Source: Paraspadella gotoi (Eukaryota > Animalia > Chaetognatha). Taken from it: a DNA stretch of 64,000 nt. Shown piece after piece: positions 6,100-38,240 of the stretch (position 1 is its first letter; every line of letters begins with the position of its first letter). The notes under the pieces were generated by a model that was not told the DNA's origin, ran no database searches, and worked only from the letters and a program-made list of their open reading frames with translations. A program made the position numbers and the translations under genes. The stretch spans positions 19,223,572 to 19,287,571 of the forward strand of contig CM119270.1 in NCBI GenBank assembly GCA_051294375.1, written 5' to 3'.

Positions 6100-6850
6100 A
6101 GAGAGGGAAATATAGGCGTTCAGACGCAAAAATTCTTGACATACCTATCTGATGACGTCATCACTTCTGGTCATGACGTCATCACTTCCGGTCATGACGT
6201 CATCACTTCCGGTCATGACGTCATCACTTCCGGACATGACGTCATCACTTCTGGGGCATGACGTCATTTGCAGCCTTTGGCTATAACGTCATTGAAACAC
6301 TCCTATATTTTTTCCGTTATGACATCACCACTTAGCATTAAAGACGACGTCACTCTCACTATTTGCTGTAATTTTCTTTCTTGCGACTCTGAGAATGTTT
6401 TATGAAAGATGTCAGATTTTAGGTAATTAGTATTATCTTTTTAGCTAGCTGAATTCGATTTAATAGAAAAGAATTCCATGTATTTCGATTCACACCTAAT
6501 TCAACTGAAGAACTGGATGTTTACTGTCACCCATGGAACTTATGAATTTGAAACATTCGGGATTCTCGAAGAGAATCCCGAATGTTTCATTAAATCCTTT
6601 ATCATTTGTAGAAATTAAATTAAATGAATATTTGAAGGTAAAGATCGAGTTTAATATTTTGTTTTTTTCTTTATCGGTAGCCAGAGACATCACTCGCGAA
6701 TAAAGCGAAATCAAGACAAAAGATAAAGATCGATTATGGATATCAGTGAGACACTGATGGAAGTAGTATAGACAGAAACATTAGGGGATTCTCTTGTGAG
6801 AGAGAATCCCCTAATGTTTCATTAATAAACCTTTATCATTTGTAGACGTT
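6100..6850 (+). repeat. Left terminal inverted repeat (diverged) of a Polinton-like element
   Basis: Starts AGAGAG. 6100-6730 is a diverged reverse complement of about 33060-34010, for example GAGAATGTTTTATGAAAGAT and AATATTTGAAGGTAAAGATCGAGTTTAATATTTTG. Confidence 0.7.
6151..6270 (+). repeat. 21-bp tandem array (ATGACGTCATCACTTCCGGTC), about 5 copies
   Basis: Directly visible. The unit holds the palindrome ATGACGTCAT and ACTTCCGG. Confidence 0.95.
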
Positions 6851-6879
6851 AAACAATCATAATTATTATGACTGTGTAT

Positions 6880-7407
6880 CTATTTTATTTTTTGAACAAT
6901 TATGACACACATGATTGCAATTTTCACATCTAAAAGGATACATATCGAGTATTGTTTCAAATTTATAATACAAGAAATCGATAAATTGTTCAACATTATT
7001 TGTCCTTCGATTTTGAGGCCAGTAAAATCTTCGCTTCTCAGAATGTCATTGTCTTCGTTATCAACCTTTATCAAATTAGGTATAATTTCTAGGGTTGTGT
7101 CATCTTCATCATAATCGTTAGAATGGAAATCGATGAAAAAGTTTTTTTTACTTATACGCATAGTTTCGTCGTCGTCATAATCTCCCGTTTCATCGAATGA
7201 TAACATCTTAGGTTCGTACAAATGGTCGTTAATTATTTTTATATTTTCATTGATGAGACTTTTGTATTCTTGTAAATCGATGATGGTTGAAGTTGTTACA
7301 TGCATTTTGGGATCATTCAGTTCTATCTTTATGATTTTAATCTTTTCATTTTTTAGTCCCACAAAAAACAAGTTTTCGGTTATTTCATATTTTGTTTCTA
7401 ATTCCAT
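6880..7407 (-). CDS. Hypothetical 175-aa protein, possibly divergent PC4-like fold
   Basis: Intact ATG ORF. The beta-strand then IIDLQEYKSL helix pattern loosely recalls PC4. Co-oriented with its neighbours. Confidence 0.5.
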   Translation of the reverse strand: MELETKYEITENLFFVGLKNEKIKIIKIELNDPKMHVTTSTIIDLQEYKSLINENIKIINDHLYEPKMLSFDETGDYDDDETMRISKKNFFIDFHSNDYDEDDTTLEIIPNLIKVDNEDNDILRSEDFTGLKIEGQIMLNNLSISCIINLKQYSICILLDVKIAIMCVIIVQKIK

Positions 7408-7435
7408 CTATTAAAAAATACAAATTATTAAAGCT

Positions 7436-7867
7436 TTATTTGTACAACGACAAAATTGAATCATGAGTATCATAAAAGAATTTTAAAAACGAAATATTTT
7501 TTTCATTTCCTCTGATGGCAATGTCAAATTTGCTTTTATTATCGCCCATCTTGCGAATGAATAGTTTGTTTCCCTCTGAGTTGTCGCCAGATTTTAATAT
7601 TATTTCCATTTTGATTTCATGACCGAATTGTATTTTCACGCTTTGAAGCCATTCTTTTTTTTCAGTCTTTTTTACAAATTTGAGAAGTCTTGATAAGTTT
7701 TCTTTATTCACGTAATTTTTAAATTCTTCTCCCGTCCAACAAATTTTTTTACGAACGCAAAAATTAATGCCAGTTTTTCTAATTTGTTTAATGTAAAGAT
7801 AACCATCATCGTTAGCGCGAAAATGTATTTGGTGACAAATATTTACACGTTCGTTCAATTTCGCCAT
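7436..7867 (-). CDS. Hypothetical basic 143-aa protein, possibly tandem PC4-like
   Basis: Intact ORF with good ATG context (AAGATGG) and TATAAA about 35 nt upstream. Contains LYIKQI..KICWTGEEFKNY. Confidence 0.55.
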   Translation of the reverse strand: MAKLNERVNICHQIHFRANDDGYLYIKQIRKTGINFCVRKKICWTGEEFKNYVNKENLSRLLKFVKKTEKKEWLQSVKIQFGHEIKMEIILKSGDNSEGNKLFIRKMGDNKSKFDIAIRGNEKNISFLKFFYDTHDSILSLYK

Positions 7868-7988
7868 CTTTAATGTTATCTAATTTAATCAAAAATGATT
7901 TATATGGACGTTTTTTTTCTATTTCCTTATATTGTGACTTATCATACATTACTCATAGGTACAAACGTGCCCGTTAGGCGTAACCCAA

Positions 7989-8166: not shown

Positions 8167-8303
8167 ATCCATTTCGGTTTCTATTTCCCACACCTTAGTA
8201 TAACAGAAGAAGTTTAAAAGACTTTAGATATGAGAATTTATTAAGGGAGTCAGCCATTTTTTCTACTCCACTCCACTCCTTGGGCATACATGCGTCATAA
8301 AAA

Positions 8304-8926
8304 TTAAGTGGCGGTATAGGCGTAGTCCCAACGCAATTCTTCGTCGTTGGGCCTTTCATTGATTTCTTCGAGTTCTGTTGTATGTAAAAGATATATGTAT
8401 GATATAATATTTTTAAAATAAAGTAACGTATATTTTTACCTATATTTTCGTAGACATCATTATCCGTGGGATCATCCACGTTTCTGTACCATCCAACCGC
8501 AATTGATTCATCCCTTGTCTGTAGATCATCTCTAACTCTGTCCATTAACACTCTCACCTCCTGCCCTACTCTTTCGTTGTCGTATTTGTTTATGTAATCT
8601 TCGTCGTTGTCGCTAAAATCATCCCATTCTGCTTCTGGAGGCGCCGCCAACGGAACACGAGGTGGCGGTGGTAAATTTGCTAACATCAAATCCATTTCGT
8701 CTTTATTAACGGGTATCATGATCGCCGGTTGTAGATATTCCTCGGGGTTTAAGTTTGTGATGGTCGTTTCCCCCCTATGACGTCGCATATCCTGAAAGTT
8801 AGGCGTCCTCAGTCGTTTTTTTGCAATGGCTAATAATTTTGTTATTATCCATCCGGTTATCATGAATAGAATAATTGCTTGCAAAATCTTTATGATTCTG
8901 AGATCGTAATCATTTTTCCTGGTCAC
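8304..8926 (-). CDS. Single-pass membrane protein with Tyr- and Pro-motif-rich acidic tail
   Basis: Hydrophobic IIKILQAIILFMITGWIITKLLAIA then KKRLR. The tail has LPPPPRVP, YIN, YDN, YRN and YENI. A GT-AG intron at 8439-8375 gives the C-terminus ELEEINERPNDEELRWDYAYTAT*. The start is uncertain. Confidence 0.65.
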
Positions 8927-8954
8927 GATACAAAAAATGAAATTATATTAGAAC

Positions 8955-9537
8955 TTATTCGTAATGAAAAACAAAATTTAAAATGAGTCGTTGTTGTTGT
9001 TCTCTCCCCCCTTCGAGAGCAACGGCGTCGTCGTCCTTGTTTTTTTCGTTTCGACGACGCCTTTTGTTTTTTTTACCGTCGACGGTGAGAGAGGGAGAGG
9101 GAGGAGGAAGAGGAGGAGGAAGAGAGGAAGGAAGAAGAGTAAGATGGAGAATGGGGGGAGAGAAAGGGAGAAGGATGGCGATAGGTCGACGTCGAAGACG
9201 ACGACGATGACGATGGCAACGTCGCCGACGCGGTCGATGACTTTTCTTCTTACTCTCCTCGACGACAAACTGGTCGCCGCCTCCCGCGGCGAATGGAATT
9301 TCGCCGAGATATTCGGCCACCCCCGAAGCAGCGATGGCGGCGTTTAAGGCGCCTTTGTCTGAGTTTATGTGAGAGAGATTTAACCTCTCTCCAAATCCGG
9401 AGTCCTTGTATAACGCGGCGATGATTTCGTTCGTCGACTTCGCCGTACGCTCGCGCGATTCAAAATTGTCGATGCTGAGGCATCGACTAGAATTTCGTCT
9501 CAACGCCGAGGTTACCGCCGAGGAGACGAATCTGTAA

Positions 9538-9575
<38 letters not shown>

Positions 9576-9901
9576 TAAAAAGAATGTACATCCGAAGAAA
9601 ACGAACTAACGAACGAATAATTACCTCAGAGTTCGAAAATTCCTCGGGTTCGAGGACGAGGGCGGTTCCGTAAGGTCCCATTTCTGATTTCCAAGAACTC
9701 GCCGGATTCCCGCAAACTTCGGAATCGGCCGCTCCTTCGCCGCCGTCACGAAGGGAATCCCCTTATCGCCACCCTGGGGAAAATTCGTCCGTCGATTTCA
9801 AGATGGAAACGACTAGCGACCATCTGTCCTGTATTTTAAACCGCGGCTCCATGCCACCCATTCTCCCGCCGACTCTATTTAGTCTACTCTCGACGTAAGT
9901 A
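8955..9901 (-). pseudogene. 3' part of a tandem PC4-like gene split by the Tc1/mariner element
   Basis: Removing three apparent 1-nt insertions gives GIREFWKSEMGPYGTALVLEPEEFRTLR|FVSSAVTSAL (PC4: DIREYW..GISLNPEQWSQL). The domain opens with RFKIQDRWSLVV. GT-AG intron 9624-9532 has a (TC)n tract. Confidence 0.6.
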
Positions 9902-10739
9902 CGTAACTTTTCTCTAGACTCACGAAGTTCAGGGCTCTCATAACTCTCGAAATATGGGCTAAAATTTCTTTATATTCGAGGATCAGATGCGGGAATAATC
10001 GGTTTATTGCCCACCTGACGGATTTTAAGAAATTTCAAAATTTTGCGCTCCAAGCCCTAAATTTTTTTAAAATTATTTCTCATCTAGTCTTAAAAGTATT
10101 AACCCAAAATAATTAAAATTTTTATTGAAAGTCGTCCTAAGTTGAAGCTATAAAATGACGTAAAAAAATTTAAAAAAATATTTCTAATTTTTATGTTATT
10201 TTGAAAAGTTGTAAAAAAGCTATGATACCATTGTTCCTTTAAAAAGGGTTCAATTTTAAAAATTTTGGATACAAACAATTCTCTCTCTCGTGAGAATGTT
10301 GTAAGATTACTTTATCATTAAAAAAAATTTGTTTAACTAATGAAAATCTTTTTACAATTTGTCAAAAAAAAAGGAAATGCTAAATATATATGTTTAAATC
10401 TGAATTGTCTCAGTACATCCAAAAGTAGAAGCTATACTGATTCTAAATATACTTTCACATTTAAAAAATATTTTTTACAACCAGAGATATTTATTTACAA
10501 AGTGACAAAAAATTGTAAAATCAACCTTTTTTAAAGCTTAATAAAAACTGATGGAATGAATATTATTCAATGAAATTTTGCATTCTAATCCAAATAACCA
10601 ACAATTTTAAGACAACCAAAACTTGCAACCACTCACTTTCCCAAAAAAAAGATATACATTGAAAAAGATATATTTTTTAATTTGAAATCTATTTTTTTTA
10701 ATTTTCAATGAATTTTGATCGTTATTAATTAAAAAATCA

Positions 10740-11130
10740 TAATAGATCAGTCAGTTCCTGGATAATCTATATACTCAATAAGTATTCATTCTGTCGAGAT
10801 CCACAGTTAGAATTATAAAAATAGGCTAATGATTGGTCAAATAAATATGGTAGGTAAATTTTGGAAGAAAATGATTGAATTAATTAAATCTTTTATGTTC
10901 ACCATAAGATAGCCCCTTTTCAAAGTTTTCTTGTTCCAAACGTCTGCCCTCGGCAAAGACAAAAAGAAGGACCCTGTTATGCAACTTACCATAAGGTAAG
11001 GTCGACAGTCTTGAAAATAATCTAACAAAGATAACAAGACCAAAATATTATTTAAGCGCTTTGCTTCATTAATCATTAACGATTCCCCAGTTGTTGTAAA
11101 AGTCTGAAAAATTTTCATCGCTGCTTTTAG
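10740..11130 (-). pseudogene. Possible highly decayed Penelope GIY-YIG endonuclease
   Basis: Fragments across frames: VSC..., GQT, EHKR...KFTYHIYLTNH..FIIL..MN. Many stops and shifts. Confidence 0.3.
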
Positions 11131-11624
11131 TTAAGGTTATTGAGGGGTTGTTGAAAAGTGGTCAGTGTGAAATAGTAATAAAAATAATGAGTGAGAGATT
11201 AATGGAAAGAATGAAATATTCAATGTGAGATTGATGGAGAGAAAGAAAGATTGATTGGGAAATTGATAAAGAGAAAGGAAGAGAGAGTGAGAGTTTGATG
11301 GAGAGAAAGAAAAATTGAGAAATTGAAGGAGAAAAAAAAAGATTGATTAAGAAATTGATGTAGAGAGAAAGATTGATTGAGAGATAAATAAAATAATATT
11401 ATGGCAACGTGAATAAATTAGACAAAGTTTTAAATATTTAAAAATTAAAATTTTTAAAAATATATTCTGATAAAGATTAAAAAGTTAGATAAAGGTAAGT
11501 ACTACAAATTTTAAAAATATTAATGATAAATGGGTTAAATTAGACTTTTACTCACTCTTCATCCCTGTCCTCATCTTCACCTATTCTCACATCTTACCAC
11601 TGTCCCTTACTAAATTCTTTGTTG

Positions 11625-11661
<37 letters not shown>

Positions 11662-11693
11662 ACTCAATGTTTGTAAAAAATTTTTGTGTCTTT

Positions 11694-11745
11694 TTCAAAT
11701 GCTGATGAAGGCTTGAAGAACAAAGCCGAAACATGTCCAAATTTT
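11694..11745 (+). ncRNA. Minimal type I hammerhead ribozyme (Penelope-like)
   Basis: CTGATGA (11702), A-GGCTT/AAGCC stem II, GAAA, palindromic CATG, then TC. AATAAA follows at 11751. Stem I is weak. Confidence 0.75.
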
Positions 11746-12069
11746 ATGCTAATAAAATTATTTTGTTGTTCCACGAAAATTTCGTTTCTTCTAATTCAAC
11801 AAAACAACAAAAAGAAAGGATTAACACAATGTCTACCGAGAAAAACCTTAAAAATTATCATCATCATTGTTGAGGAACTAGTAGTCAGCCTGCCTTGCCA
11901 GGTGTATCTCCATCCTATGACCCATCGCGCCATTACTGGGGAGACTGCCGTCAACTTCCTCGCCGGAAGTGGCGCGGCCGCATACAGCGCCCCTTTGGTG
12001 GCGCCGTTGCGAGTGACGCCGAGACCCTTTGTCGGCGAGGGTGTCAGCCTCTTTGTCACTGCCTCAGTC

Positions 12070-12240
12070 AGTTGTCCACAAGTCCATCAGAAGTGTGGGA
12101 CACCACAAAGTCTATTGCCCTCGTACAAGACGTCATGATCTGCTACAAGTGGTGACAAAACGTGACTGAGTGGCAACGTGCCTCAGGTCCCTGTAAAAAG
12201 GTCGTTTAGGACGGGTTGAGGTCTCACAGTGACTGGTCTC
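12070..12240. repeat. Dispersed repeat of unknown family (also about 15910-16095 and 20340-20540)
   Basis: Shared ACAAGACGTCATGATCTGCTACAAGTGGTGACAAAACGTGACTG core. Confidence 0.7.
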
Positions 12241-12409
12241 TCTGTGAAACGTGAAAAGGTAAGAGCATAGAAAGGCAGATAGGCTTGAGTAGAACAAATG
12301 TAGAAAGCGAATCATGATGAGCAAAATACTATCTAGGAAAAAGTTAGCAAACATTTTTTTTTATAGTTCATTTATTCAATAAAAAATATACAAACATGGT
12401 AAAACATTC

Positions 12410-12630
12410 TCATATTTGTATGCCCTCCTCGGCATCGACATGCCTGCATTTGTTCTGGGCATGCTCTCGTAAAGTGAATTGAGGTAGAAGTAAATGTTTT
12501 TCCACACCGTAAAAAATTGCAATGGTGGAACGAGGGATTCCAAGTCTATTGCTGATGAATTGTTGCGTCTTTCCTCTTTCTCAGAGCTACATTCACTTTA
12601 TGAACCAAGAAGGGGCTGTCTATTCGGCAT
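12410..12630 (-). pseudogene. Tc1-type transposase remnant: N-terminal HTH joined to the C-terminus
   Basis: ERGKTQQFISNRLGIPRSTIA is directly followed by VWKNI..YLNSLYESMPR..MQAC.DAE.GHT.Y* (with frameshifts). The DDE core is deleted. Confidence 0.7.
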
Positions 12631-13355
12631 AACCAAATTAAAAAAATGAAAAAAATAACTAACTCAATTTGAAATAGCAAACAATAACTCAATACCAAGA
12701 ATTGTGGAAAACTAAAGGATTTTTTCGCCATTTTCACTTGAGGTAGCAATCTTATTTTGCCTCTCACTTCTATACGGTGATCTACGAAAAATGGAAGGAA
12801 GCAACTGAAGGAAATTTAGTGTAGAATCTGAAACATCCTGATTTTTTAAAAATCGACAATTTTTCGAGTAGATATCCTCAATTAAAAATGTTCTAACTTT
12901 TTCTAGATAGTAAACAGATAGCAATGGCATCTCTCAACAATAATCATCATCCATTAAATTTAATAGTTTTGTTAATTTTCATTGACAAATTCATTAAAAT
13001 TTCAAAAATTTCAAAAAAAATAATACTCTTCTAACTTTTCAATCTCTATCAGAATCCGTTAAAAAAATTAGAATTTAATAAAAAAATTTTGGACATTATA
13101 TAGTATTTGGATAATATAAAATAGCTTCCATGCGTTTAACCATAAGATAAATATTAATTTTTTAAATTTTACATCTTTAATAAACACATTAACATATTTA
13201 TACCAGACTTTTGTTAGTTCATTACTTATTACTCTGTTGTCGGTCCGTCGGTCCTCCCAACTTTTGTTGGTAAAATCATTTTATCATATCAGAAAATCGA
13301 ATTATGATAAATAATGCAAAAAAAAAGAATTTGATATTCAACAACAATTTTTTTA

Positions 13356-13410
13356 TTTATAAACGGACATGTTTCGGCTTTGTAATTCAAAACCATCATC
13401 AAGGTTTATA
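13356..13410 (-). ncRNA. Degenerate hammerhead ribozyme (Penelope-like), second copy
   Basis: Minus strand reads TATAAACC-TTGATGA-TGGTTTT-GAATTAC-AAAGCC-GAAA-CATG-TC-CGTTTATA-AATAAA. Stem I is 7 bp; the core C is altered. Confidence 0.65.
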
Positions 13411-14744
13411 GAATTTGTAAAATTATAGGCAAACTACGTATGTGAAAAAGAAGAGGGAGAGAGAGAGAGAGAGAGAGAGAGACTGTCATAGACATAGGTA
13501 CAAGTATTCGAATATAGCTCTCTCTCTCTCTCTCTCTCTTTCTAACTGCTTATCCCTAATCCCAACGCTAATCCTAAAACCAGATTTCTAATCCTTATCC
13601 CTTGCCTTAATCCTCATCCTTAACCCTAATCCCTAACCCTATCCATAAATTATTCCCTCAATCTAAACTTATCCCTAACCAAAACCCTAAGAAAAACTTA
13701 ATGAGAACGCCGGCCGTAATTTTCATTGGTAAGCTTTCAGCAATAACAACGCGCAACCTTTGATTTCTGCCCTCTCTCTTTTTCTCACTCACTCACTCAC
13801 TTGCTAACTCACTTACTCGTCAATTACTTTTCACACACTCTTTTTCAACTGATGTCTTTGTCTTTGTTTTTTCCGCACTGTCTGTAAATATTGACGCGAC
13901 GCTTACTGTTATAAATATTTTTACCCTACAAAAAATTAATTTTCTCAATCTTAAACTTGTTGTGTTAACACTGCACATTTTGGTTAATAACTTTGAAACT
14001 AATCAAAAATTTTAAAATCTGTTTTCTTTCATTTTAAACTTTAAGTGGTATAAAATTACAGATACAAAATTTTAATTAATAATTTTTAGTGGCTAGTTTT
14101 TATAAGTGATTGAAAATTGTGTTTTTTTAGGTATTTTTGACAGTTATTGGGTCATATTACTCAAAGTTAATTTTTAAAAGTCTATATATATACATATATT
14201 TGGAATCAGCTTGATCCCCTCTTTGTCTTGGGACAGAAAAATTTAATATAGACTGCATATCTCAAAAAAGGACAAAATGTTTTAATCTTGTAATCCAAGT
14301 TTTTCTAATGTGGTAATATTTTTTTTTTAATTTGGGGTTGTCTTAGGTTAAAGTGCACGTTTTACAATATTTTAAAATCATCACGTAATTTGATTTATTA
14401 TTTTTGACTATTTTAGTAAAAAAGTTTTTAAACTGATTTTTATGTGATAACTCCTAATGTTTTTTAAAATACCTCCCTGAAATTACATCAATATGTGCGG
14501 GCATGTTAGTCGATTATATGGACCAAAATAAAACAATTAAAAAAGAAATAGCTGTTTTAGAAGCAAAACAAAATAAAAAATAAATCAAGACCTTAGCGCA
14601 AAATTTTTGAATTGATTATTTTCCATCAGGTGGGCAATAGAGCAAATTTTCCTTCATCTTTTTACGAAATCTTAGCTCATTATAACGATAACTTTATGAG
14701 TTATTCATTCCCTGAACTTCGTGGAGTCTAGAGAAAAGGTACTG

Positions 14745-14918
14745 TAAGTTCTTCGTCTCCAACGCCCTCCACTCGGCGAGCTTAAACCACAGAGTCAAGA
14801 GTTCGCTTCCATTCGGTTTTGTCTCTTGAATTCTCACGGAATTTGTCTTTAAGTTTGCGTGACAAGTGACGCTAATGCGCTCTCCGATTGAAAACCGAGT
14901 AAACACGGACGAGTTCAT
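14745..14918 (-). pseudogene. 5' PC4-like domain of the split gene
   Basis: MNSSVFTRFSIGERISVTCH..SVRIQET..LTLWFKLAEWRALET resembles PC4 FQIGKMRYVSV..IDIRE..ISLNPEQWSQL. TATAAAAG lies near 15035. The ORF tail at 14694-14744 is transposon TIR. Confidence 0.55.
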
Positions 14919-15059: not shown

Positions 15060-16265
15060 TTTCTCGAAGGAAAAAAAGAGAGAGAGAGACAGAGAGAGAG
15101 GGAGATTGAGAGAGAGAGAAAAATGCGGGATCTCTTAGTGTATCACTCTCTCTTTTTTTTTTCCCCCCGATGTTGTCTCGCAATAAGTTATCGTCATTTT
15201 GGCTTTTTTTTTATTTGGAATCAATTCAACTTTTTTTTATATTTAAAAACAGATATCTCCGCCTCCACATTAGCCGCTCTTTAACATCTAGAGCCGTCGA
15301 TGGGGGGCAAGGGAAAGGACTGTCTCTCTCTCTCCCAAACTCTCCCGCCAACCAAACGTCGTCCCTTCGCCATTCCGACCAGACATCGTCCCTTTGCCAT
15401 CTTTGCCATCGTCGTCTTCTCTCACATTTTTTGGATTATTTTTTTGGATTAAACAATGTAAGTTGATTTATTTTAAATTTTTAAATTTTTTTTGTAGAGA
15501 TTTAGTCGCGACATATTATCACCAGTTAATGAATTATCCGATGCCAGCTTTTTTTTTTGGGAGTGTCTACGAAAAGCCTTTCTTAAACTATAGATTTCAA
15601 ACTAATAAAATTACTACTTTCTAGGGTTTCATTTAATTCTTCGGGTCATTCTTGATTTTAAAAATCGGTTTGGAATAGTTATCTTGTCATTAAGCACAAC
15701 GCACTGTTGCTTATTCTAAGACTTCAAAATTCGCTATGACAAAAGTTTCTTTCAGAGTTTTTGAACTAATTGAGCAGAAAAAATCTATTTTAACTGTTGC
15801 GTTATAAATCTACTTTTAACTATTGGCTTAAAAAAAAAAGGAAAATTAAGCTTCTCGCGAGAAGAAATCGAGCGTAGACACTCACGACTTAGTTAGAATC
15901 AGCGATTTTTGTCCACAAATCCATTGAAAGTGTCTGGGGTCGAAGAAGTGGGACTCCACAAGTCTATTTGCCACATGACAAGACGTCATGATTCTGCTAC
16001 AAGTGGTGACAAAACGTGACTGCAGTGACAACGTGCCTCATGTGTCCCCATAAAAAGGCAGTTTTGGGACGGGCACAGTCTCACTGTGACTGGTCCCAGT
16101 CTCACAAAATTTTAAAATTTCATGCAACATTTTTCGAATCTAAACATGTTTTCTCACTTTCCATTCCCCATACCCCTAAAATCGCTATCTAATAAATGTT
16201 TATAACAATTATAAAAAGTTCTTTACAATGATTTTCTAATTGGTTTAGACATAAATTTTGTCTAA
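15060..16265. repeat. Block duplicated at about 19270-20720
   Basis: Colinear copies that differ mainly by small indels. Confidence 0.8.
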
Positions 16266-23414: not shown

Positions 23415-24671
23415 TAGTTTAAATGCTTGATCTTCTTTAAATTGGCAACCGCCGAGCAGGACAAGTTTCCCGAAAGATCGGCCAAGTTAATTTCACGGAC
23501 GGCGGGTACGCCGAAGAATATTCGTTACGCCCTAGGACTTTGAGTTCGTAATCTCTGGGTATCAGGGAAGCTAACAGAGACAAGAGTTAAACAATCTTGC
23601 TCCGAGATTAATATTTACGACGCCTCTCTTTTTTTCGATAAAATTTTCGGGGTAGCCAGGGATGAAAGACACCGACTTTCTTCTTTCTTTCTTAAAATTG
23701 TACGAAAAAGGATGGTAACATAACGAATAAAGGTCAAGTCGCGCAATGTTTCCAGCCTTTGGAGATGAGAAAAGCTACCGTGAATAGAAAGAGAAAAAAT
23801 GAAATAAAAAAAGATGCCTCGGTGAACAAAAAACACTAAAACAAAACGAAAAAGTCCAATCGTAAATGATTAGCCTGACTCCCAGTTTATTACTACTTGA
23901 AAGTAAATATTTCCATGATGGTATCACAAAACCTCATCAAGTCTGTTCCCAAATTAATGCAATTCCGATTTTGTGTCGTAAAAGAAGGATAAACCAAGGA
24001 ATTGTCGTCAGGATGCAGGTAGGAATACAATATACAAATGTGAACTTTCACAACTGGAAAGCGTCTCAACATTTTTTTAATGTATGTTTTATAATTCCGT
24101 TTTCAGCAGACGCATCAGGGCTATCTTGTAGTCAGCCCTTACCAACTTGGGGACCAAACAAAGACCAGATTTGTACAACGTCCTTATTTTTTGCGACATA
24201 CCATGCCGGGCTGACATAGATACATCTGCACCTCCGACCAACATCATATTCGTTATCTTTTTCTCCTCCTCATGCCTCGCTCTTCTTCTTTCCTTCTGTC
24301 CTCCATTCAACGGGGCAAAGTTAGATGATCGACAGAAACGAACACGCCGGGTTTGACGCCGTGATTTCCCGTTGCTGTCGTTGTCGTCAGCTGGAGCGTT
24401 TCCGCAGCGCCTTTCCAATCTTGCGGGTTCGCAAGCTGCGACTGGCAGCCAAGGTTTGCTGCTCTCGTCCGGCGACGCGGGATGAACCAAGGAGAAGGGA
24501 TTTTCCCGGTTCTCTCACGAAAAGGTATGCGGGAGAATACGGAGGAGAAGAAGGAGGAATTGCCATCGATCTTCGTTTGTCATCATCGTTCATTGTCACG
24601 AGTCATTGTCATCATCTAGTTTTTAAATTCTTCGCTGTCTATATCATGTTAGAGAAAGGCAAGAAGCCATC
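23415..24671 (-). pseudogene. Polinton pPolB N-terminal region, noisy copy
   Basis: Colinear with 26366-27551, with more indels. Confidence 0.7.
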
Positions 24672-26365
24672 TGTGCTTTTTTTTTTAGCACGTGTGCAAA
24701 ATCGTTTATTTTTTATTTACACATGATTTTAAAAATTTCATGCAACATTTTCGGAATCAAACATGTTTTCTCAACTTTCCATTGCCCCGCATACCCCTAA
24801 AATCGGCTATCTAATAATGTTTAAAGCAATTTATAAAAGTTCTTTACAATGATTTATTGGTTAGACATAAAATTTGGTCTAATTCTATGTCAGGAGGGTT
24901 ACGAAGCATCTAAACAAATAATTTTTTAAAAAATATTTATCATTCACGCTCTCTCTTAAATTTATAANNNNNNNNNNNNNNNNNNNNNNNNNAACCCGAG
25001 TTTAAACGTCACGGATGTGCGATCAATGACTTTGCACACTTTAGGAAACGGATCCACAAACATTTGGTCAGTCATGGTGGTGTTATTAGAAAGCTTAGTT
25101 AAACTATTATTTTAATAATCAAAAATATAATATTTAATTTCTTTATTAAAATTTTTAACTATTCACAATTTAAAAAATTCACATTTACATGAAGAAGTTA
25201 TCTACATTAAAGTCACTCCTTTCGAGGTTTTTTGACGATCCACCGGGAACGTCAAAAGGTTCGTTCACGCATCTCATTGTCGTCGTCGTTTCCTCACCAT
25301 CATCCCTCACGCACGGTGGCGTTTAAGTAATCATACAGGTTACCTCCAAACTAGAACAGCGAGAGATATACGTCCCCCAAATTTAAGACCCACGGTTTTG
25401 GACTCGGCCAAAGGCGGTTGAAATGATGCAGGCTGAAAAAATGTATTAAAAAATAGATTAATGTTAATGTTTATGTCACGTGATAAAAAGGTCAACAATG
25501 TAAATGTATTATTTATATGTCTTAAAGACAAGTGAGACAACAGAATAGGAAAACAAAAATTACCGAAGCTGAACCGTGTCCTTGGTTGTCCGTGCAGGGG
25601 GTTTCCAGTAAGGACAAGGCGAAAAGAGGGAGTGCGATAATGAAGACCTTCTTCGCGTGGCGCTTCGTAATATCGTGCGTTTTGCACTCCTTAAAAAAAA
25701 AAATAATACGTAAATATCTAATTTTTTAAGAATAGAATTATTGTTATAAAAAAATAAATAACTCAATAAATAATAAAAACTCACGTCTCAAATCGGCCAA
25801 TGTCTTCTTTCAGTCCCTGCTGGTACCGGCGGAAGAGGGCTACCAGCTCCTGCCTGGACTCTCCAGATGGTACAAATAAGGGGCAATGTTACTACCACTG
25901 GCCGAAGAACCGGAAGACGAGGACGATGACGACGACGATGAGGCATTATATTTGTCTTTTTTCAAGACAAAGTGTGATCTTTTGTCAATCAATGTCATGT
26001 ACTGCGACAGTGGAATGACCCACGAACTAATTAAAGGAAAATAAAAAAAATTAGCGATGAGAAAAATCTCTTTTTATTATTAATTCATTCATTCATTCAT
26101 TCATTCATTCACTTACCGAATAGTCTTGACGCAATTGTACTTGTCATTTTCAATTTTTATCGCCTCCATGGATAGTAATCTAAACGAGAAGAAAATTAAA
26201 TTCATAATAATAATATCATATATTTAATGTTTAATGTTAATATATACACAACAATAAGAAATAAAAAACACAGATAACTTACTTTCCCTCGTCGTCATCG
26301 TTGCTGCCCTTGGATTTTCTTTTCATCCCGAAATATTGAGCTATTTTTTTTTCTTAAAAAGCAGC

Positions 26366-27551
26366 AATCGTTTAAATGCTCGATCTTCTTTAAATCGGCA
26401 ACCGCCACGGGACAAGTTTTCGAAAGATCGCCAAAGTTAATTTCGGAGGCGTACCAAAGATATTTGTTAGCCCTGGACTTTGAGTCCGTAATCTCTGGGT
26501 GAAGGGAAGCTAACAGAGACAAGAGTAAACAATCTTGCTCACGAGACTTAATGTTTACGACCGCCTTCTTTTTTTCGATAAATTTCGGGGTAGGGATGAA
26601 AGAACCGACTTTCTTCTTCTTTCTTAAATTGTAGAAAAAGGATGGTAACATACGAATAAAGGTCAAGTCCACATGTTCCAGCCTTTGGAAGATGAGAAAG
26701 CTTCCTGAAAGAAGAGAAAAAATGAAATAAAAAAAAGATTGCCTCGGTGAAAAACAGTAAAATAAACAAAACGAAAAAAGTCAATAGTAAATGATACCTG
26801 ACTCCAGTTTATTTACTATTTGTAAAGTAAATATTTCCATGATGGTATCCAAAACCTCATCCAAGTCTGTTCCCAAATTAATCAATTCCAATTTTGTGTC
26901 GTAAAAGAAGGATACCAAGGAATTGTCGTCAGGATGCAGGTAGGATACCAATATACAAATGTGAACTTTCACAACTGGAACGCGTCTCAACATTTTTTTA
27001 ATGTATGTTTTTAATTGCGTTTTCAGACGCATCAGGGCTATTTTGTAGTTAGCCACTTCCAACTTGGGGACCAAACAAACCGTTTTTACAACGTCCTTAT
27101 ATTTGCAACAACCATCCGGGCTGACAGAATACATCTGACCTCCAACATCATCTTCGTAATCTTTCTCCTCCTCATCCTCCTCTTCTTCTTCCTTCTGTCC
27201 TCCATTCAACGGGGCAAAGTTGATGATCGAAGAACGAACACCGGGTTTGACGGCCGTGATTTCCACGTTGCTGTCGTTGTCGTCAGCTGGGCGTTTCGCA
27301 GCGCCTCCAATTTGCGGCTGCAAGCTGCGACTGCAGCAAGGTTGCTGCTCATCGTCGGCGACGGCGGATGAACCCACAAGGAGAAGGGATTTTCCCGGTT
27401 CTCTCACGAAAGGTATGGGAGAATACGGAGGAGAAGAGGAGGAATTGCCATCATCTTCGTTGTCATCATCTTCATTGTCACGATCATTGTCATCATCTAG
27501 TTTTTAAATCTCTTCGCTGGTCTTATCATGGTTTAGAGAAGAAGAAGCCAT
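26366..27551 (-). pseudogene. Polinton/adintovirus protein-primed DNA polymerase B, N-terminal region, intron-containing and truncated
   Basis: Splicing out 26797-26705 gives KLESGSFLIFQRLEHVDLTF..GSFIPTPKFIEKKKAVVNIKSREQDCLLLSLLASLHP..RANKY..EINFGDL..PVAVADLKKIEHLN. This fits the GSGW..GSYIPLP..KKAxxNxxN.D..CF..LA.LHP..FE..N block. No exonuclease or polymerase motifs follow. Confidence 0.8.
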
Positions 27552-27859
27552 CTGTTTTTTTTTACACATGTGCAAATCGTTTATTTTTATTTACAATGAT
27601 TTTAAAAATTTCATGCAACATTTTCGAATCTAAACATGTTTTCTCACTTTCCATTCCCCCCATACCCCTAAAATCGCTATCTAATAGTTTATAACAATTA
27701 TAAAGTTCTTTACAATGATTCTATTGGTTAGACATAAATTTGGTCTAATTCTATGTAAGGAAGGGTTACAAGCATTAAAATAATTTTTTCAAAAAATTTA
27801 TCATCAACGCTCTTTCTCCTTAAATTTATAAAAAGAAGAGTCCGCTTCACAAAATGCTA

Positions 27860-28230
27860 AAAAAGATGAATTTTCAATTGTTTGATTAGGTTAATGATGT
27901 CCTGATCTTCTCCATCCTTGGCCCGCAACTCCTCGATCCTTTGCGCCGCGACCTCCATCTTCTTTTCATTTTCAATAAAATTGTTTGACGCCTGAGTAAA
28001 CTCAACAGACTTCTCTTTGCAAGACACACAGGTTGGTTAAAGTTTCAGATCTTCGGGACTGGCTCTCTCTTCTCCAACAAAAGTTTTCTTTACACCTCGA
28101 ATCGACGCCCCTACGTCGGAATAATACTTGCACAGAGAAAAATATACTTTGTCTATGAAAAGCATACTTTTCCCAGAGTTGTGCAAGAATTAAAAAACAG
28201 TTTGATCTCTTCCGGAATTGAGAAGGGCAT
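27860..28230 (-). pseudogene. Hypothetical gene A (about 120 aa, coiled-coil C-terminus); other copies at 18391-18660 and 20870-21305
   Basis: MPFSIPEEIKLFF...VEFTQASNNFIENEKKMEVAAQRIEELRAKDGEDQDII, with indels. Confidence 0.5.
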
Positions 28231-28264
28231 AATTTGTTTTAACTAAAATGTAAGTTAATTATTT

Positions 28265-29063
28265 AATCACGAGATAATTTGACGGCGTCCCATTTGATAA
28301 TATAAATTTTGTAAAATAGTTAAACATCTATATACACACTGACAATTATTTTCTAAATAATTTTCATCTAAATGGATATCTAACCATATTTTTCTACTAA
28401 TTTTTTACACAAAATCCACTTTTCATATGATTTGTTAATTAACTCCAAATTAAGCTTACTTTTAAATAACGCCCTTATTGATATTTGATTAATTAAAAAA
28501 TCATCCCATCATAATATTTTTAAATCCACACAATTTAAAATTTCATAGGAATATGAACATATGAAATGTGTTTTTAAAACAAAAAAATATTTGGCTAATT
28601 TCTAATAATAAAAACAAAATGTCCCTAAAATTCCCACCCCCACTCTACGTTACAGTAATTTAAGGCAAAACGTAAAATACTAATTGATTAATGCCTAATT
28701 TTCTAAAGTATGAGAAATATGAGTTCAGATGATAATGTCCATGGCAAATGGTGATCGAAAGTAAAGAGCTCTTCCTTCTTCTTTCCCAAACCTGACCCAT
28801 CACCTGCATCCACCATATCGTCGATTGTCTCCAGATGATAATTGTATCGGTCCATAATCATGTTGATAATCGAGTCCTTGACGATATTCACGATGGAAGG
28901 CTTGGTTCACTTCCACCAAGACGTGAAGAATCAACCCGAGTTTAAACGTCACGGATGTGCGATCAATGACTTCGGACACTTTAGGAAACGGATCCACACA
29001 CATTTGGTCAGTCATGGTGGTGTTATTAGAAAGCTTAGTTAAACAATTATTTTTAATAATCAA
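28265..29063 (-). pseudogene. Hypothetical gene B, second full copy
   Basis: MTDQMCVDPFPKVSEVIDRTSVTFKLGLILHVLVEVNQAFH... continuing to the same C-terminus as copy 1. Confidence 0.55.
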
Positions 29064-29149
29064 AAATATAATATTTAATTTCTTTATTATAATTTTTACC
29101 TATTCACAATTTAAAAAATTCACATTTCATGAAAAAGTTTTTATTAAAG

Positions 29150-30370
29150 TCACTCCTTTCGAGGTTTTTTTGAACATCCGGGAACGTCAAAAGGTTCGTC
29201 TCCAGCGTCGTCATTGTCGTCGTCGTTGTCCTCACATCATCCTCACGCACGTGCGTTTAACGTAAATACCATGCAGGTATTCCAAACTAGAACAGCGAGA
29301 GATATACGTCCCCCAAATTTAAGACCACGGTTTTGGAATCGGCCAAGGTCGGGTTGAAATGATGCAGGCTGAAAAAAGTATTAAAAAATAGATTAATGTT
29401 AATGTTTATGTCACGTGATAAAAAGGTCAACAATGTAAATGTATTATTTATGTCTTTAAAGACAATGAGACAACGAATAGGAAAAAAAAAATTTACCGAA
29501 GCTGAACCGTGTCCTTGGGTTGTCCGTGAGGGGGTTTCCAGTAAGACAAGGCAAACAAAAGGGAGTGCGATATGAAGACCTTTTCCGCGGTGGCGTTCGT
29601 ATATCCGTGCGTTTTGCACATCCTTAAAAAAAAAAAATAATAGTAAATATCTAATTTTTTAAGAATAGAATTATTGTTATAAAAAAATAAATAACTCGAA
29701 TAAATTAATAAAAACTCACGTCTCAAATCGGCCAATGTCTTCTTTCAGTCCCTGCTGGTACCGGCGGAAGAGGGCTACCAGCTCCTGCCTGGACAACTCC
29801 AGATGGTACAAATAAGGGGCAACGTTACTACCACCGGCCGAAGAACCGGAAGACGAGAACGATGACGACGACGATGAGGCATCATATTTGTCTTTTTTCA
29901 AGACAAAGTGTAATCTTTTGTCGATCAATGTCGCGTACTGTGACAGTGGAATGACCCATGAACTAATTAAAGGAAAATAAAAAAAATTAGCGATGAGAAA
30001 AATCTCTTTTTATTATTAATTCATTCATTCATTCATTCATTCATTCATTCACTCACTTACTGAATAGTCTTGACGCGATTGTACTTGTCATTTTCAATTT
30101 TTATCGCCTCCACGGTCAGTAATCTAAACGAGAAGAAAATTAAATTCATAATATTAATATCATGTATTTAATGTTTAATGTTAATATATACACAACAATA
30201 AGAAATAAAAAACACATAACTTACTTTCCCTCGTCGTCGTCGTTGTTGCCCTTGGATTTTCTTTTCATCCCGAAATATTGAGCCAATTTTTTTTCTTAGA
30301 AACCAGCAACTCGGCGCATNNNNNNNNNNTGAGCCAATTTTTTTTTTTAGAAAGCAGCAACTCGGCGCAT
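29150..30370 (-). pseudogene. Hypothetical multi-exon gene C (about 5 exons); copies at 22230-23410 and 25200-26362
   Basis: GTAAGT/GTGAGT donors near 30222, 30060 and 29719. Exons include VEAIKIENDKYNRVKTI and SWVIPLSQYATLIDKRLHFVLKK..YLYHLELSRQELVALF. Boundaries approximate. Confidence 0.5.
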
Positions 30371-30452: not shown

Positions 30453-30704
30453 TCACCTCAATTTTAAATTTTCCATCTTAAGTTTGTTATTTATTCCTAC
30501 GTGTTGAACAACTTCAACATCGTGAGAATAAATTCCTATTAAATTTCGTTTACAACCTTGCCCCTGACATAATTTATAATAGTTTGTTCTACAAACTGAA
30601 CAATTAGGAATTATTTTTTGTTTTTCATCGCGAATTTTAATCTTTTTAAAACAATCGGTACAAACGACATGTCCATTTTCGCAAACAATTAATTGTGACG
30701 TCAT
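30453..30704 (-). CDS. Partial RING-finger protein lacking the first CxxC
   Basis: CENGHVVCTDC..CSVCR is similar to the 3660 RING. TATAAAAAG lies about 45 nt upstream. Confidence 0.65.
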   Translation of the reverse strand: MTSQLIVCENGHVVCTDCFKKIKIRDEKQKIIPNCSVCRTNYYKLCQGQGCKRNLIGIYSHDVEVVQHVGINNKLKMENLKLR

Positions 30705-30948
30705 GATGAAAATTTGTCGCTTTGAAAATGTAAAAAATTTGGTTCTCTTTTTATATCCCTGTTAAAAACACTCAAAGACTCAAAAGTCATCGGTTGAGTA
30801 TCCGGTTTTCGTAATCACACAATATTCTCTCTTTTTTTTTTCTAGCGAGATAACTATTATCAAAAAACAAAGTTTTGCCAAGTTTCAGTAACTAATCGAA
30901 GATTTGAAAAGAAATTTCTAATGCTAAAAAATTTCCTAGTAAATTAAA

Positions 30949-32069
30949 ATGTTAATTTGGACATTAATATTCTTAGTAAAACTCGTTGAGGGTGTGGTGG
31001 AACCGGATCAGGTAATATTAAAAATGTTTTGATGTATTTTTTTACTGCAAAAAAATTTTTAATAAATGTAACACGTATTTAAGATTGTAACCATTGGAAC
31101 GGATTTACCGCTCTTAACACGACCGCCACTATGGTGGACAACAACGACAACAACAAGGATGAAGACGATGGAAACAATGACAAGCATGATGAAGACGACG
31201 AGCGGCACTACCAGGATGATGGCGACAGATACTACGACAAGCAAAAAAGAGACGACAATGACGAAAGAAAGCACGACGCAAACAACTACTAAAACAAACG
31301 CCAGCACCCCACTGAGAAAGTTTGTATAGAGAGACCTCCAGGTTAATATCCCGCTCTTCTCCCCCACCCACCAATCGCCTACACTGAGAAAGCTTGTATA
31401 GAGAGACCTCCAGGTTAATCTCTCGCTCTTCTCCCCCACCCACCAGGGTGCACCCTAGAAGCGTCCGTAACAAAAGAGATCGTGACGGAAGCCACTGTGA
31501 CGGAAGGGAGCACGACGGAAGGGAGCATGACGGAAGGGAGCACGACAGAAAAAAGAACAATGGAAGGGAGCGCCACAAAAAAAAGAACAATTGAAGCGAG
31601 CGAAACCACAATGGAAACAAGGACAATAGAAAAAAGTACGATGGAAGGGAATATAGCATCATCCACAAAAACTACATCTAATTCATTATGGAATACCTCA
31701 ATTGAAACCATGACTATTTCGTTAAAACCGGCGCAAAGCAGACAAGCAGAAAGAATAAATGATAAACGTAAATCAACGATAGAAATTTTTTTTGACATTT
31801 TTAATTCCGGATTAAATATAGGAATTTTCATAATGGTCTTAATAATTTTAAAAAAGATGAGTAACGACATTCAGAATGTAAGTAGAAAAAATCGACCTTA
31901 TCCGCCAAAAAGCACTTCATCAATTGAAAAAAGGGTTAAACAAAGGAACATTAGAAAGTTTGAAAATAAAAGTAACGAGGAACCAAATGATGAAGAAGAC
32001 ATAAAAATAGAGAATGAAATCCCAAAGAGGAAAAAAAAAAGCTTTCACGTCGTTACTAAAAAGAAATAA
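30949..32069 (+). CDS. Mucin-like type I membrane protein (paralog 3), interrupted near 31310-31445
   Basis: Exon 1 (30949-31011) MLIWTLIFLVKLVEGVVEPDQ; intron 31012-31083; IVTIGTDLPLLTRPPLWWTTTT; TEGST repeats; TM IFNSGLNIGIFIMVLIILKK; basic tail. A duplicated segment (about 72-bp period) introduces a stop. Confidence 0.75.
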
Positions 32070-33059
32070 AAAAAGATATCAAATAACGAACGAAGGTTAC
32101 AACAAGGAAGAATCTACACCATCGTCATCCTCGTCTGAAGATGGATCGACGCCGCCGACTTTGCAATCATTCGGCAAAAAGTCAAACGAAAAAAAAAGGA
32201 TGAAAATAAGGTTGAAATCCTTAGCTTTGACGAAATCAATATCGAAAATCAAAAAGAGGAAACGAAAAAAAATCCGGTTTCACTTTCACCTATAATTTTA
32301 GCCAATGTTCCATTTTTAATCAAAAATCCTAATGCGGAATCTAATTTGTTTGAGTAAAGTATTTTTTCTTATATAAAAAAACAAATTATGGGAATTAAAT
32401 TGATATAATTCGTTTTAATGATTGATAAATATAAAAATTTAACAATGGTGAAAATATAACTAGAAAACTAATTTAAAACACTGTGCATATTTATCATCTG
32501 ACAAAGGTAAAAAGGTTCAATGGTTTCAACGGTCACAAAAAGCCGGCTAAATCTTTTCCACGTAACAATTTCACGTGAAGACCTGCCCATGAAATCGCTA
32601 TTTTTTTTTTTGCCCGATGAACTTAGATAGGAATTAGGACCCGGAGGTTATGAGAAAAAAAGGTTTGAGTCATGGAATCAGCCCAGCTTTTATCAACCGA
32701 TTAGAAAACTAGCGAGTTTTTTTTGGCAATCTGATTGTTTAAGTTGGCAATCGGCGAGACTCGGTTAGAGACTTTAGTGTTTATTGTTTACCAATCGCTA
32801 ACTTTTATTTCCTCATAGTTGTCTATTATTGAGCATCTCTACTAATTTGGCAAAAACATTAAGACTATCAAGCGATTGTTCAGTATCTCTACTAATTCAA
32901 CAAAAAACAGTAATACTAACAATCGAAATCTTTTTTCTCAAGTATCTCCGTCGATTTAATCACAAGATTCAGATTAAAAACAGATTTAATCACAGGATTC
33001 CGATTAAAACACTCGAGTTCGCTTCGCTTATCCTTATCACTGATGGCTAGAAGGTAAAA

Positions 33060-34010
33060 ACATATATCTCTCATGTTTATCTTTTGTCTTTCAACAACTA
33101 GATTGCGCTTTATTCGCGAGTGATGTCTCTGGCTACCGATAGAAAAAACAAAATATTAAACTCGATCTTTACCTTCAAATATTCATTGTAATTATTGTTA
33201 TAAAATACAAGACCATTTAATTTCTACAAATGATGAAGGATTTAAAGAAACATTCGGGGATTCTCTTCAAGAATCCCCGAATGTTTCACATTCATAAGTT
33301 CCAGGCGTGATTGTTTACATCCAGTTTTTCATTTATATGCTTTGTTTCGTTAATTGAATTAGGAGTGAGTCACAATACACAGAATTCTTTTTTATTAAAT
33401 CGAATTCAGATGGCTAATAAGATAATTTTAATTATGATACTAATTACGAAAAATCTGAAATCTTTCATAAAACATTCTCAGTCGCAAGAAAGAAAAATGC
33501 AGCAAATGTTGAAATAGCGAGAGTGACGTCATCTTTAATGCTAAAGTGGTGACGTATTTTGATGACGTTATAACAGAAATTGATGACATAATATAGGAGT
33601 GTTTTAATGACGTAATAGCCAAAGGTAATGACGTCATAACCGAAGGTGACCTTGGCAAAGTGATGGCGTATTTTGGTGACGTCATAACAGGGAAGTGATG
33701 ACGTCATGACCGGAAGTGATGACGTCATGACCGGAAATGATGACGTCATAACCGGATGTGATGACGTCATGACCGGAAGTGAAAACGTCATGACCGGAAG
33801 CGATGACGTCATAACCGGAAGTGATGACGTCATAACCGAAAATGATGACGTCATGACCGGAAGTGGTGACGTCATGACTGGAAGTGATGACGTCATGACC
33901 GGAAGTGATGACGTCATAACCGGAAGTGATGACGTCATGACCGGAAGTGATGACGTCATGACCGGAAGTGATGACGTCATCTGCGCCTGAAAGCTTGTTT
34001 TTCTATCTCT
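33060..34010 (-). repeat. Right terminal inverted repeat, ending CTATCTCT
   Basis: Reverse complement of 6100-6730; host-type sequence follows. Confidence 0.7.
33680..33981 (-). repeat. 21-bp tandem array (GATGACGTCATGACCGGAAGT), about 14 copies
   Basis: Directly visible; inverted relative to 6151-6270. Confidence 0.95.

Positions 34011-38188: not shown

Positions 38189-38240
<52 letters not shown>

What the first reader, a model, noticed from the sequence alone, without database searches (positions are those of the whole stretch)
6100..34010. TIR-bounded Polinton-like element carrying an intron-containing host-manipulation gene set but no visible integrase, ATPase, capsid or polymerase core
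Seen: inverted termini beginning AG and ending CT enclose co-oriented small genes with GT-AG introns. These are PC4-like genes, a YxN-rich membrane protein, two mucin-like proteins, a RING protein and a truncated pPolB N-terminus. Established: Polintons are about 15-20 kb, have AG...CT TIRs and encode pPolB, integrase, ATPase, protease and capsids. Inference: subtracting the 4.8-kb Tc1 insertion and duplicated blocks leaves roughly 14-17 kb. That suggests a defective or satellite member of an undescribed, intron-rich lineage with an unusually large accessory repertoire. Capsid and protease remnants at 50-479 show that full relatives exist in this genome.
Basis: partly seen in the sequence, partly recalled or inferred. 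Interest (0 to 1): 0.85.

Follow-up and report, generated by a model that had tools for sequence, protein, structure and literature searches.

The report
Coreless, intron-bearing Polinton arms, spliced polymerase stub
Two real end-arms of a virus-like jumping element (Polinton/Maverick) flank orphan genes with likely introns and a broken stub of its DNA polymerase gene, but the ends do not match and the middle is a gappy, noisy assembly patchwork, so this is likely a decayed hybrid of two related copies rather than a new helper-dependent element.

Summary
The inverted ends are real: about 630 bp of homology, AG...CT tips and a 21-bp repeat array. The polymerase stub is real: a terminal-protein domain plus half a vOTU domain, split by a 93-nt GT-AG segment at which homologues are contiguous. 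No integrase, ATPase, capsid or polymerase core was found between the ends. But there is no target-site duplication. The two repeats differ at 57 of 554 aligned sites while the adjacent frames are open, which neutral ageing of one insertion fits poorly (P about 0.01). Four N gaps separate the ends, and the duplicated blocks carry long-read-type 1-bp indels, as do duplicates outside the element. Public contigs show that 6100 is an insertion point into a second, similarly built element. Best reading: a composite of arms of related decayed Polintons in a nested cluster. PC4 identity was not confirmed, and host manipulation is untested. Worth keeping: an orphan end module (mucin-like membrane gene, RING) seen in two subfamilies, and an intron in the predicted priming loop.

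The parts
6100..6730 (+). Left terminal inverted repeat; tip AGAGAG; 21-bp array at 6152-6267
   Evidence: contigs of the interrupted neighbour stop at 6099 in 3 of 4 runs, and one joint places 6100 in a second context in 2 of 4 runs
6883..7407 (-). Open 175-codon acidic orphan frame
   Evidence: no Pfam or NCBIfam match
7439..7867 (-). Open 143-codon orphan frame; predicted strand-strand-strand-helix pattern twice (PC4-like only by recalled pattern)
   Evidence: AF2 pLDDT 39.6; no match
8198..8947 (-). Open orphan frame: N-terminal hydrophobic segment, Pro-rich stretch, four YxN motifs; contigs at the lowest depth level
   Evidence: no homologue of similar length
8958..9860 (-). GC-rich orphan gene candidate with a GT-AG segment at about 9534-9623 and an Arg-rich stretch
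   Evidence: no family match
9902..14742 (.). Tc1/mariner-type insertion, TA-flanked, decayed; breaks the small gene at 14744-14915
   Evidence: contigs in 2 of 4 runs run on past 9901 with other letters
14744..14915 (-).
15325..16102 (.). Block W: repeat-derived piece, also seen at 12095-12238 and as a noisy copy at 19712-20550
16270..17230 (-). Mucin-like type I membrane gene, copy 2, broken by stops and frameshifts; 66-nt GT-AG segment 17081-17146
17448..18390 (.). Assembly gap of 943 N (further gaps at 21265-21289, 24968-24992, 30320-30329)
18391..27831 (-). Noisy repeated copies of blocks X, Y, Z and W around the 25-N gaps; likely long-read gap fill over one real tandem duplication
26367..27143 (-). 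pPolB stub: terminal-protein domain, 93-nt GT-AG segment 26705-26797, first half of vOTU; cut 53 residues after the Cys and joined to the start of block Y (noisier copy at about 23412-24500)
27599..30319 (-). Blocks X and Y: multi-exon orphan gene candidates upstream of the pPolB start
   Evidence: no family match
30456..30704 (-). Half RING finger lacking the first Cys pair
30949..32356 (+). Mucin-like type I membrane gene, copy 1, pointing at the right repeat; 72-nt GT-AG segment 31012-31083; reading frame broken near a 72-bp tandem duplication at 31310-31445
33073..34010 (-). Right terminal inverted repeat; 21-bp array at 33677-33980
2135..6099 (+). Neighbouring outer element interrupted at 6100: similar repeat motifs, mucin-like gene pointing outward, two-exon RING, further orphan genes

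Best explanation
The interval holds a left and a right end-arm of one low-copy Polinton/Maverick family, likely brought together from two related copies by deletion or recombination in a nested cluster, with the core genes lost and the middle likely inflated by long-read gap filling. Shown: homologous inverted ends, an insertion breakpoint at 6100 in a second Polinton-like element, a pPolB stub cut inside vOTU at a junction with block Y, a TA-flanked insertion, and no core-gene match in the sequenced part. Inferred: the parent elements carried their core between two accessory arms, as vertebrate Mavericks do. A tandem duplication with a breakpoint in pPolB, and a deletion joining two copies, removed the core. 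The locus cannot copy, integrate or package itself. The accessory genes (surface glycoprotein-like, RING, orphans) would be host-spliced products of the parent lineage; their role is untested.
For: No target-site duplication. The repeats differ at 10% of aligned sites with 17 gaps, while three frames covering 1,617 of the 2,065 bp next to the left repeat are open: 4.3 stops expected, P(0) 0.013, and about 25 indel events expected. Deeper contigs of the left arm differ from the window by only about 3-4% (26 of 698, 19 of 596), less than the two repeats differ. The stub ends 53 residues after the vOTU Cys, whereas the His motif lies 73-124 residues on in 12 of 14 homologues. The junction shares an 8-9 bp stretch with the sequence upstream of block Y. 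One-base gaps per mismatch are 0.29-0.70 in the six in-element block pairs, 0.78-1.86 in five pairs outside the element, and 0.09 for the two repeats. [quoted passage not shown]
Against: The ends are correctly inverted, with homology well beyond the repeat array, and most genes share one strand, as in a single element. The three open frames were chosen as the frames next to the repeat, and repeat arrays may diverge faster than coding DNA. One of the four natural control pairs (12095-12238 / 15948-16095) also has 0.38 one-base gaps per mismatch, inside the range of the blocks. The core-gene profiles came from 20 distant viral loci and missed the capsid piece at 145-354, so very diverged core remnants could be missed.
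Confidence: 0.55

Rival explanations
1. Scaffolding chimera: the left piece (1-17447) and the right piece (24993 onward) come from different loci of the family and were joined across gaps by repeat-confused links; the 28-kb unit does not exist in the animal.
For: Four N gaps. Noisy redundant blocks around 25-N gaps inside and outside the element. Overfilled gaps are often scaffolding errors: 444 of 1007 in one assembly (PMC3504050, passages read). No target duplication and unequal tips.
Against: The 167-bp shared piece and block W occur on both sides of the large gap, which fits neighbouring sequence. The Z-to-Y junction is read the same way in two copies. Which gap-filling program made the assembly is not known.
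Confidence: 0.22
2. One old insertion of a single Polinton that later lost its core by internal deletion, gained a Tc1-type insertion and decayed in place.
For: Inverted homologous ends, canonical AG-repeat tip, shared strand, about 15 kb remainder. Both mucin-like genes and the RING are broken.
Against: Open left-arm frames conflict with 5% decay per arm. No target duplication.
Confidence: 0.13
3. A helper-dependent satellite lineage: coreless elements that keep both ends, a spliced terminal-protein stub and accessory genes, and are copied and integrated by complete Polintons.
For: Contigs of both accessory arms examined (6826-7852 and 3089-6099) lie about 4-6 times deeper than contigs over the capsid/protease piece in runs X1 and X4, and copies differ by only about 3-4% (depth is a hint, not a copy number). 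The terminal-protein domain is kept whole. The same end module occurs in two subfamilies with no DNA likeness.
Against: The stub is cut mid-domain at a duplication junction. The ends are unequal and lack a target duplication. The capsid piece may belong to another subfamily, so the depth contrast need not mean that arms outnumber cores.
Confidence: 0.1

Closest known systems
Vertebrate Mavericks/Polintons (Barreat and Katzourakis 2021, PMC8097293; passages and section 7 read)
   Same: AG-repeat tip, long inverted ends within the 46-1,447 bp range, accessory regions beside the ends, mostly defective copies.
   Different: Intact elements there have eight intronless core genes and 6-bp target duplications; here the core is absent, the pPolB stub has a GT-AG segment and there is no duplication.
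Polinton pPolB with TP-vOTU N-terminus (Krupovic et al. 2024, PMC11071308; passages and section 7 read)
   Same: Domain order TP then vOTU; the TP model matches Y-family little-finger domains, the origin that paper proposes; Ser and Gly lie in the loop after the second helix. Of 16 homologues scanned, 6 match DNA_pol_B_2 and 6 Endonuclease VII; named ones are insect proteins.
   Different: vOTU is cut before the His, there is no exonuclease or palm, and a GT-AG segment lies in the predicted priming loop; 'intron' does not occur in that paper's main text.
Nematode Mavericks with cargo (Widen et al., bioRxiv 10.1101/2022.07.12.499685; passages read)
   Same: Intron-containing extra genes next to a terminal repeat.
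   Different: There the core genes are intronless and the cargo is a 2-5 kb host-derived protease or kinase region; here about 15 kb is orphan accessory sequence on both arms, with paralogous mucin-like membrane genes.
Polinton-like viral elements carrying introner introns in dinoflagellates (PMC12166617; abstract and passages read)
   Same: Spliceosomal introns inside integrated Polinton-type elements.
   Different: Protist hosts with active introners; no introner family was looked for here.
Adenovirus E3/E4 terminal regions (recalled, from no call)
   Same: Spliced genes for membrane glycoproteins and host-modulating proteins near the genome ends of a related virus group.
   Different: No sequence or structure match was found; analogy only.

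Membership tests
Polinton/Maverick | Long terminal inverted repeats with AG/AGT-repeat tips | tested here: met
   About 630 bp of homology; left tip AGAGAG, right tip AGAGAT; motif from PMC8097293 section 7
Polinton/Maverick | 6-bp (5-8 bp) target-site duplication | tested here: not met
   No direct repeat of 4-9 bp (one mismatch allowed from 6 bp) within 10 bp of either end
Polinton/Maverick | Protein-primed DNA polymerase (TP-vOTU-Exo-Palm) | tested here: not met
   Only TP and half of vOTU are present; 111 homologues of 200 aa or more and 26 viral-locus frames match nothing else in the window
Polinton/Maverick | Descent from a Polinton pPolB gene | tested here: met
   577 hits at E up to 0.001, best 3.9e-15; TP fold
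Polinton/Maverick | Retroviral-like integrase and packaging ATPase | tested here: not met
   Profiles from 19 integrase and 12 plus 7 ATPase-like frames gave no hit below E 0.26 in 2,474 window segments; 1,003 bases between the ends are N
Polinton/Maverick | Capsid proteins and protease between the ends | tested here: inconclusive
   No hit between the ends, but the same profiles also missed the capsid piece at 145-354 that the Atlas recognised
Non-autonomous (satellite) Polinton family | Several dispersed copies with the same coreless layout and matching ends | not testable with these tools
   No genome held; short contigs cover only 1-11380
PC4 (PF02229-like) proteins | PC4 profile or fold match | tested here: inconclusive
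   No Pfam PC4 hit at E up to 10 for the three candidate frames; model of 7439-7867 too poor to test (pLDDT 39.6)
RING E3 ligase | Eight metal ligands (C3HC4) | tested here: not met
   The in-element frame lacks the first Cys pair; the neighbour at 3660-3997 has both halves on two exons
Spliceosomal intron in pPolB | GT-AG bounds, and homologues contiguous across the segment | tested here: met
   93-nt segment; 31-residue gap in a homologue; profile positions 142 then 147 with four residues between. The GT and AG are not read in the noisier copy
Spliceosomal intron in pPolB | Spliced RNA | not testable with these tools
   No holder on record as RNA was listed
Tc1/mariner insertion | TA duplication, inverted ends, DDE transposase | tested here: inconclusive
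   TA flanks and inverted ends met; transposase only a weak HTH match

The most novel reading that the evidence does not exclude
This animal hosts an undescribed, host-spliced Polinton lineage whose ends carry an adenovirus-E3-like module (mucin-like surface glycoprotein plus RING), conserved across two subfamilies, and whose coreless arms spread as helper-dependent satellites that keep a spliced terminal-protein gene with an intron in its priming loop.
Probability: 0.1. Interest if true: 0.75.

Novelty: new variant of a known kind. Interest (0 to 1): 0.35.

Why it matters
Polinton core genes are described as intronless, and intact elements were defined by intronless frames (PMC8097293). A lineage with an intron in the terminal-protein domain and in its accessory genes would be scored as broken by such surveys and must use host splicing. 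Three related mucin-like membrane genes, twice paired with a RING next to an end, point to a surface-protein module in this lineage, which bears on whether animal Polintons make particles or alter the host cell surface. This locus itself is a wreck in a poor assembly, so it is a pointer to the lineage, not a working example.

Tried and rejected
No whole genome is held. Word-seeded protein searches found nothing at their cut-offs for the TP exon, the 143-aa frame and the YxN frame; these are weak negatives. The pPolB stub found no close locus in viral contigs. A 19-nt repeat motif gave 0 matches in viral contigs and 63 loci in metagenomes; only 1 of the 63 showed in the top BLASTN rows (repeat array only), and none carried a pPolB match. 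The Atlas gave only scores up to 0.82 for the 143-aa frame; its single-sequence model was unusable and the Foldseek search found no match. The TP model had no match at E up to 0.001 among viral predicted structures. PDB sequence searches for the 143-aa frame and the capsid piece gave nothing significant. Rfam: 0 matches. No RNA holder listed; run X7 is only guessed to be RNA, and no GT..AG joint appears among the 15 of 21 joints printed, which says nothing on expression. A 2-bp TA on both flanks of the 28-kb unit was noticed and set aside as too short. Reads were laid only on 1-11380, so the right junction and the duplicated blocks remain unchecked against raw data. The letters that follow 6099 in uninterrupted copies were not among the printed rows (583 loose-end rows not shown). 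Paper searches for introns in Polinton core genes and for non-autonomous or nested Polintons listed no description of this layout; the 2024 review PMC11426020 is not held, subscription journals and Repbase were not searched, and supplements were not read. Look-ups of earlier findings by place, by sequence and by one word set were empty.
Full report
Scope. The window is AT-rich animal-type DNA with AG microsatellites and short GT-AG segments; the host was not identified. No whole genome is held, so genome-wide checks rest on short public contigs laid on 1-11380 only.

The ends. BLASTN of the window against itself pairs 6096-6730 with 33073-34014 in inverted orientation (E 2e-135). The alignment has 57 mismatches in 554 aligned columns and 17 gap openings, only 5 of them one base long. 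Both ends carry a 21-bp tandem array, 5.5 copies on the left and 14.4 on the right; it contains CRE-like and ETS-like words (labels recalled). The left tip is AGAGAG, one of the end motifs listed for vertebrate Mavericks (PMC8097293 section 7); the right tip reads AGAGAT, and the first 50 bases of the two ends differ markedly. A scan of all end offsets within 10 bp found no target-site duplication of 4-9 bp. If one insertion with identical ends had aged to 10% difference, each arm would have drifted about 5%. The three frames that fill 1,617 of the 2,065 bp next to the left repeat would then be expected to hold 4.3 stops (P of none 0.013) and about 25 indel events; they are open. So the two ends probably differed before they were brought together.

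What public contigs add (4 of 11 listed runs laid). Contigs covering the gene at 5595-6099 stop matching at exactly 6099 and run on with 66, 1,093 and 1,093 other letters in X1, X5 and X7; the X4 contig shown ends at 6081. Position 6100 is therefore an insertion breakpoint in a neighbour that is uninterrupted elsewhere. A joint from 8934 to 6100 in X1 and X4 puts the same tip in a second context. Contigs nearly identical to the window have depths of about 29 (X1) and 203-235 (X4) at 7823-9030 and 197-479. Contigs over 6683-7852 and over the neighbour (3089-6099) lie at 91-159 and 1,094-1,231 and mostly differ from the window by 2-6%. The tool warns that depth is no copy number; I read this only as a hint of a small, fairly young family. 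Summed depth drops from 1,638 to 195 in X1 once past the repeat array and then stays level with the first genes, so the inner part of the repeat travels with these genes rather than alone. In 2 of 4 runs a contig runs on past 9901 with other letters, so other copies lack the 4.8-kb insertion.

The polymerase stub. The frame at 26298-26708(-) has 577 HMMER hits at E up to 0.001, best 3.9e-15. Of 16 hits scanned (the best one and 15 long ones out of 150 listed), 6 match DNA_pol_B_2 and 6 match Endonuclease VII, 9 one or both. Named cluster members are insect proteins (3 of 10 clusters). The upstream exon (26799-27143), folded with 29 homologues, gives a confident model (pLDDT 83.8). Its seven best matches among 48,161 chains are polymerase structures, six named as Y-family enzymes or their little-finger domain (Z 5.9-6.7, rmsd 2.8-4.5, 78-96 residues aligned). 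These Z values are below the tool's caution line of 8, but the match is the one reported for Polinton terminal proteins (PMC11071308, passages and section 7). Between the two exons lies a 93-nt segment, 26705-26797, bounded by GT and AG, AT-rich and holding a stop. A homologue aligns across it with a 31-residue gap, and the profile runs 65-142 then 147-249 with four residues between. It falls in the Ser/Gly loop after the second helix, where that paper places the priming residue (inference). Against it: the noisier second copy does not show the GT or the AG, and there is no RNA. The stub ends 53 residues after the vOTU Cys; the His motif lies 73-124 residues on in 12 of 14 homologues. At the cut the sequence joins the start of block Y through an 8-9 bp stretch also found upstream of the other Y copy.

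Missing core. TBLASTN with 111 homologues, and TBLASTN and profiles from 352 frames of 20 Polinton-type viral loci, matched only the stub. Integrase and ATPase-like profiles gave nothing below E 0.26. The capsid test is weak, since those profiles also missed the piece at 145-354, which the Atlas places at 0.98 beside Preplasmiviricota, nematode and Capsid_NCLDV clusters (recognition value below the tool's threshold). The protease remnant is a recalled likeness only. 1,003 bases between the ends are N.

Accessory genes. Two genes share a signal-peptide-like first exon ending at the same residue motif, an intron at the same position (72 and 66 nt), a Thr/Ser-rich exon and a hydrophobic segment. 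Both are broken in this sequence. A third gene of like build lies in the neighbour at about 2760-3270, without a significant alignment score to the other two. The in-element RING is a half domain; the neighbour's RING has its two halves on two exons. The order 'end, mucin-like gene pointing outward, RING pointing inward, multi-exon gene' recurs at the right end and in the neighbour, which share no DNA likeness beyond the repeat words. The 8198-8947 frame has a hydrophobic N-terminus and four YxN motifs (p 0.01 by shuffling, one motif tested) but no homologue of similar length. No tool supported PC4 for any frame. A role in host manipulation is a guess from motifs.

Assembly. The ends are separated by gaps of 943, 25, 25 and 10 N. 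The six in-element block pairs have 0.29-0.70 one-base gaps per mismatch; five pairs around N gaps outside the element have 0.78-1.86; three of four natural pairs have 0.00-0.09 and one has 0.38. This pattern fits raw long reads extended into gaps from both sides. Overfilled gaps are described for such filling, and 444 of 1,007 were scaffolding errors in one assembly (PMC3504050, passages); the program used here is not known. Block Y follows both the RING and the polymerase stub, so one duplication is probably real.

Mechanism. Most likely (0.55): parent Polintons with accessory arms inserted into one another; a duplication cut pPolB and a deletion or recombination joined the arms of two related copies, removing the core; a Tc1-type element then inserted. 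Rivals: scaffolding chimera (0.22), single old insertion (0.13), satellite family (0.10).

Comparison and novelty. It works like a defective Maverick. It fails membership as an intact one (no target duplication, no full polymerase, integrase or ATPase). Defective copies and flanking accessory regions are ordinary (PMC8097293), and intron-bearing cargo is known in nematode Mavericks, whose core genes are called intronless (10.1101/2022.07.12.499685, passages). Introns occur in dinoflagellate Polinton-like elements (PMC12166617, abstract and passages). PMC10748475 (passages, section 5), PMC3014272 (passages) and 10.1101/2025.02.07.637071 (passages) gave background only. I found no paper describing an intron in an animal Polinton polymerase, but this scan's own unchecked notes report that trait 13 times in at least 5 other genomes and mucin-type membrane genes in two, so it is a recurring variant rather than a singular case. 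Verdict: new variant of a known kind, interest 0.35.

Noticed in passing
window 480-2134: A 1.65-kb element with 72-bp inverted ends (92% alike) that resemble the Polinton ends; contig depth is tens to hundreds of times the lowest level, and it cuts the protease-like frame. An X4 contig runs on past 479 with 543 other letters, so it is absent there. Possibly a Polinton-end miniature element.
   Followed up: partly
window 2135-6099: A second Polinton-like arm with the same end order (repeat words, mucin-like gene, two-exon RING, orphans); uninterrupted in other copies.
   Followed up: partly
window 49-479: Capsid C-terminal piece preceded by a splice-acceptor-like site, then a protease-like start; the capsid gene may also carry an intron.
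   Followed up: partly
window 8934 and 6100: A contig joint in runs X1 and X4 links sequence like 8934 to the tip at 6100, hinting that this family also inserts into its own copies.
   Followed up: no
window 6096-6099 and 34011-34014: Both ends are preceded, in element orientation, by TGTA, which could be a target preference.
   Followed up: no
window 34467-35051: An open 195-codon frame on the - strand just outside the right end, with no Pfam or NCBIfam match.
   Followed up: partly
window 35883-36430: A 550-bp palindromic stretch, 76% self-complementary.
   Followed up: no
window 38045-45221 and 49815-51723: Indel-rich duplicates around N gaps outside the element, the same assembly signature.
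   Followed up: yes
window 52500-56100: Low-complexity sequence rich in G and T with odd composition, next to large N runs; probably poor-quality read sequence.
   Followed up: no
L019:6201-7595: A Polinton-type viral contig frame with phospholipase A2 and ADP-ribosyltransferase family matches.
   Followed up: no
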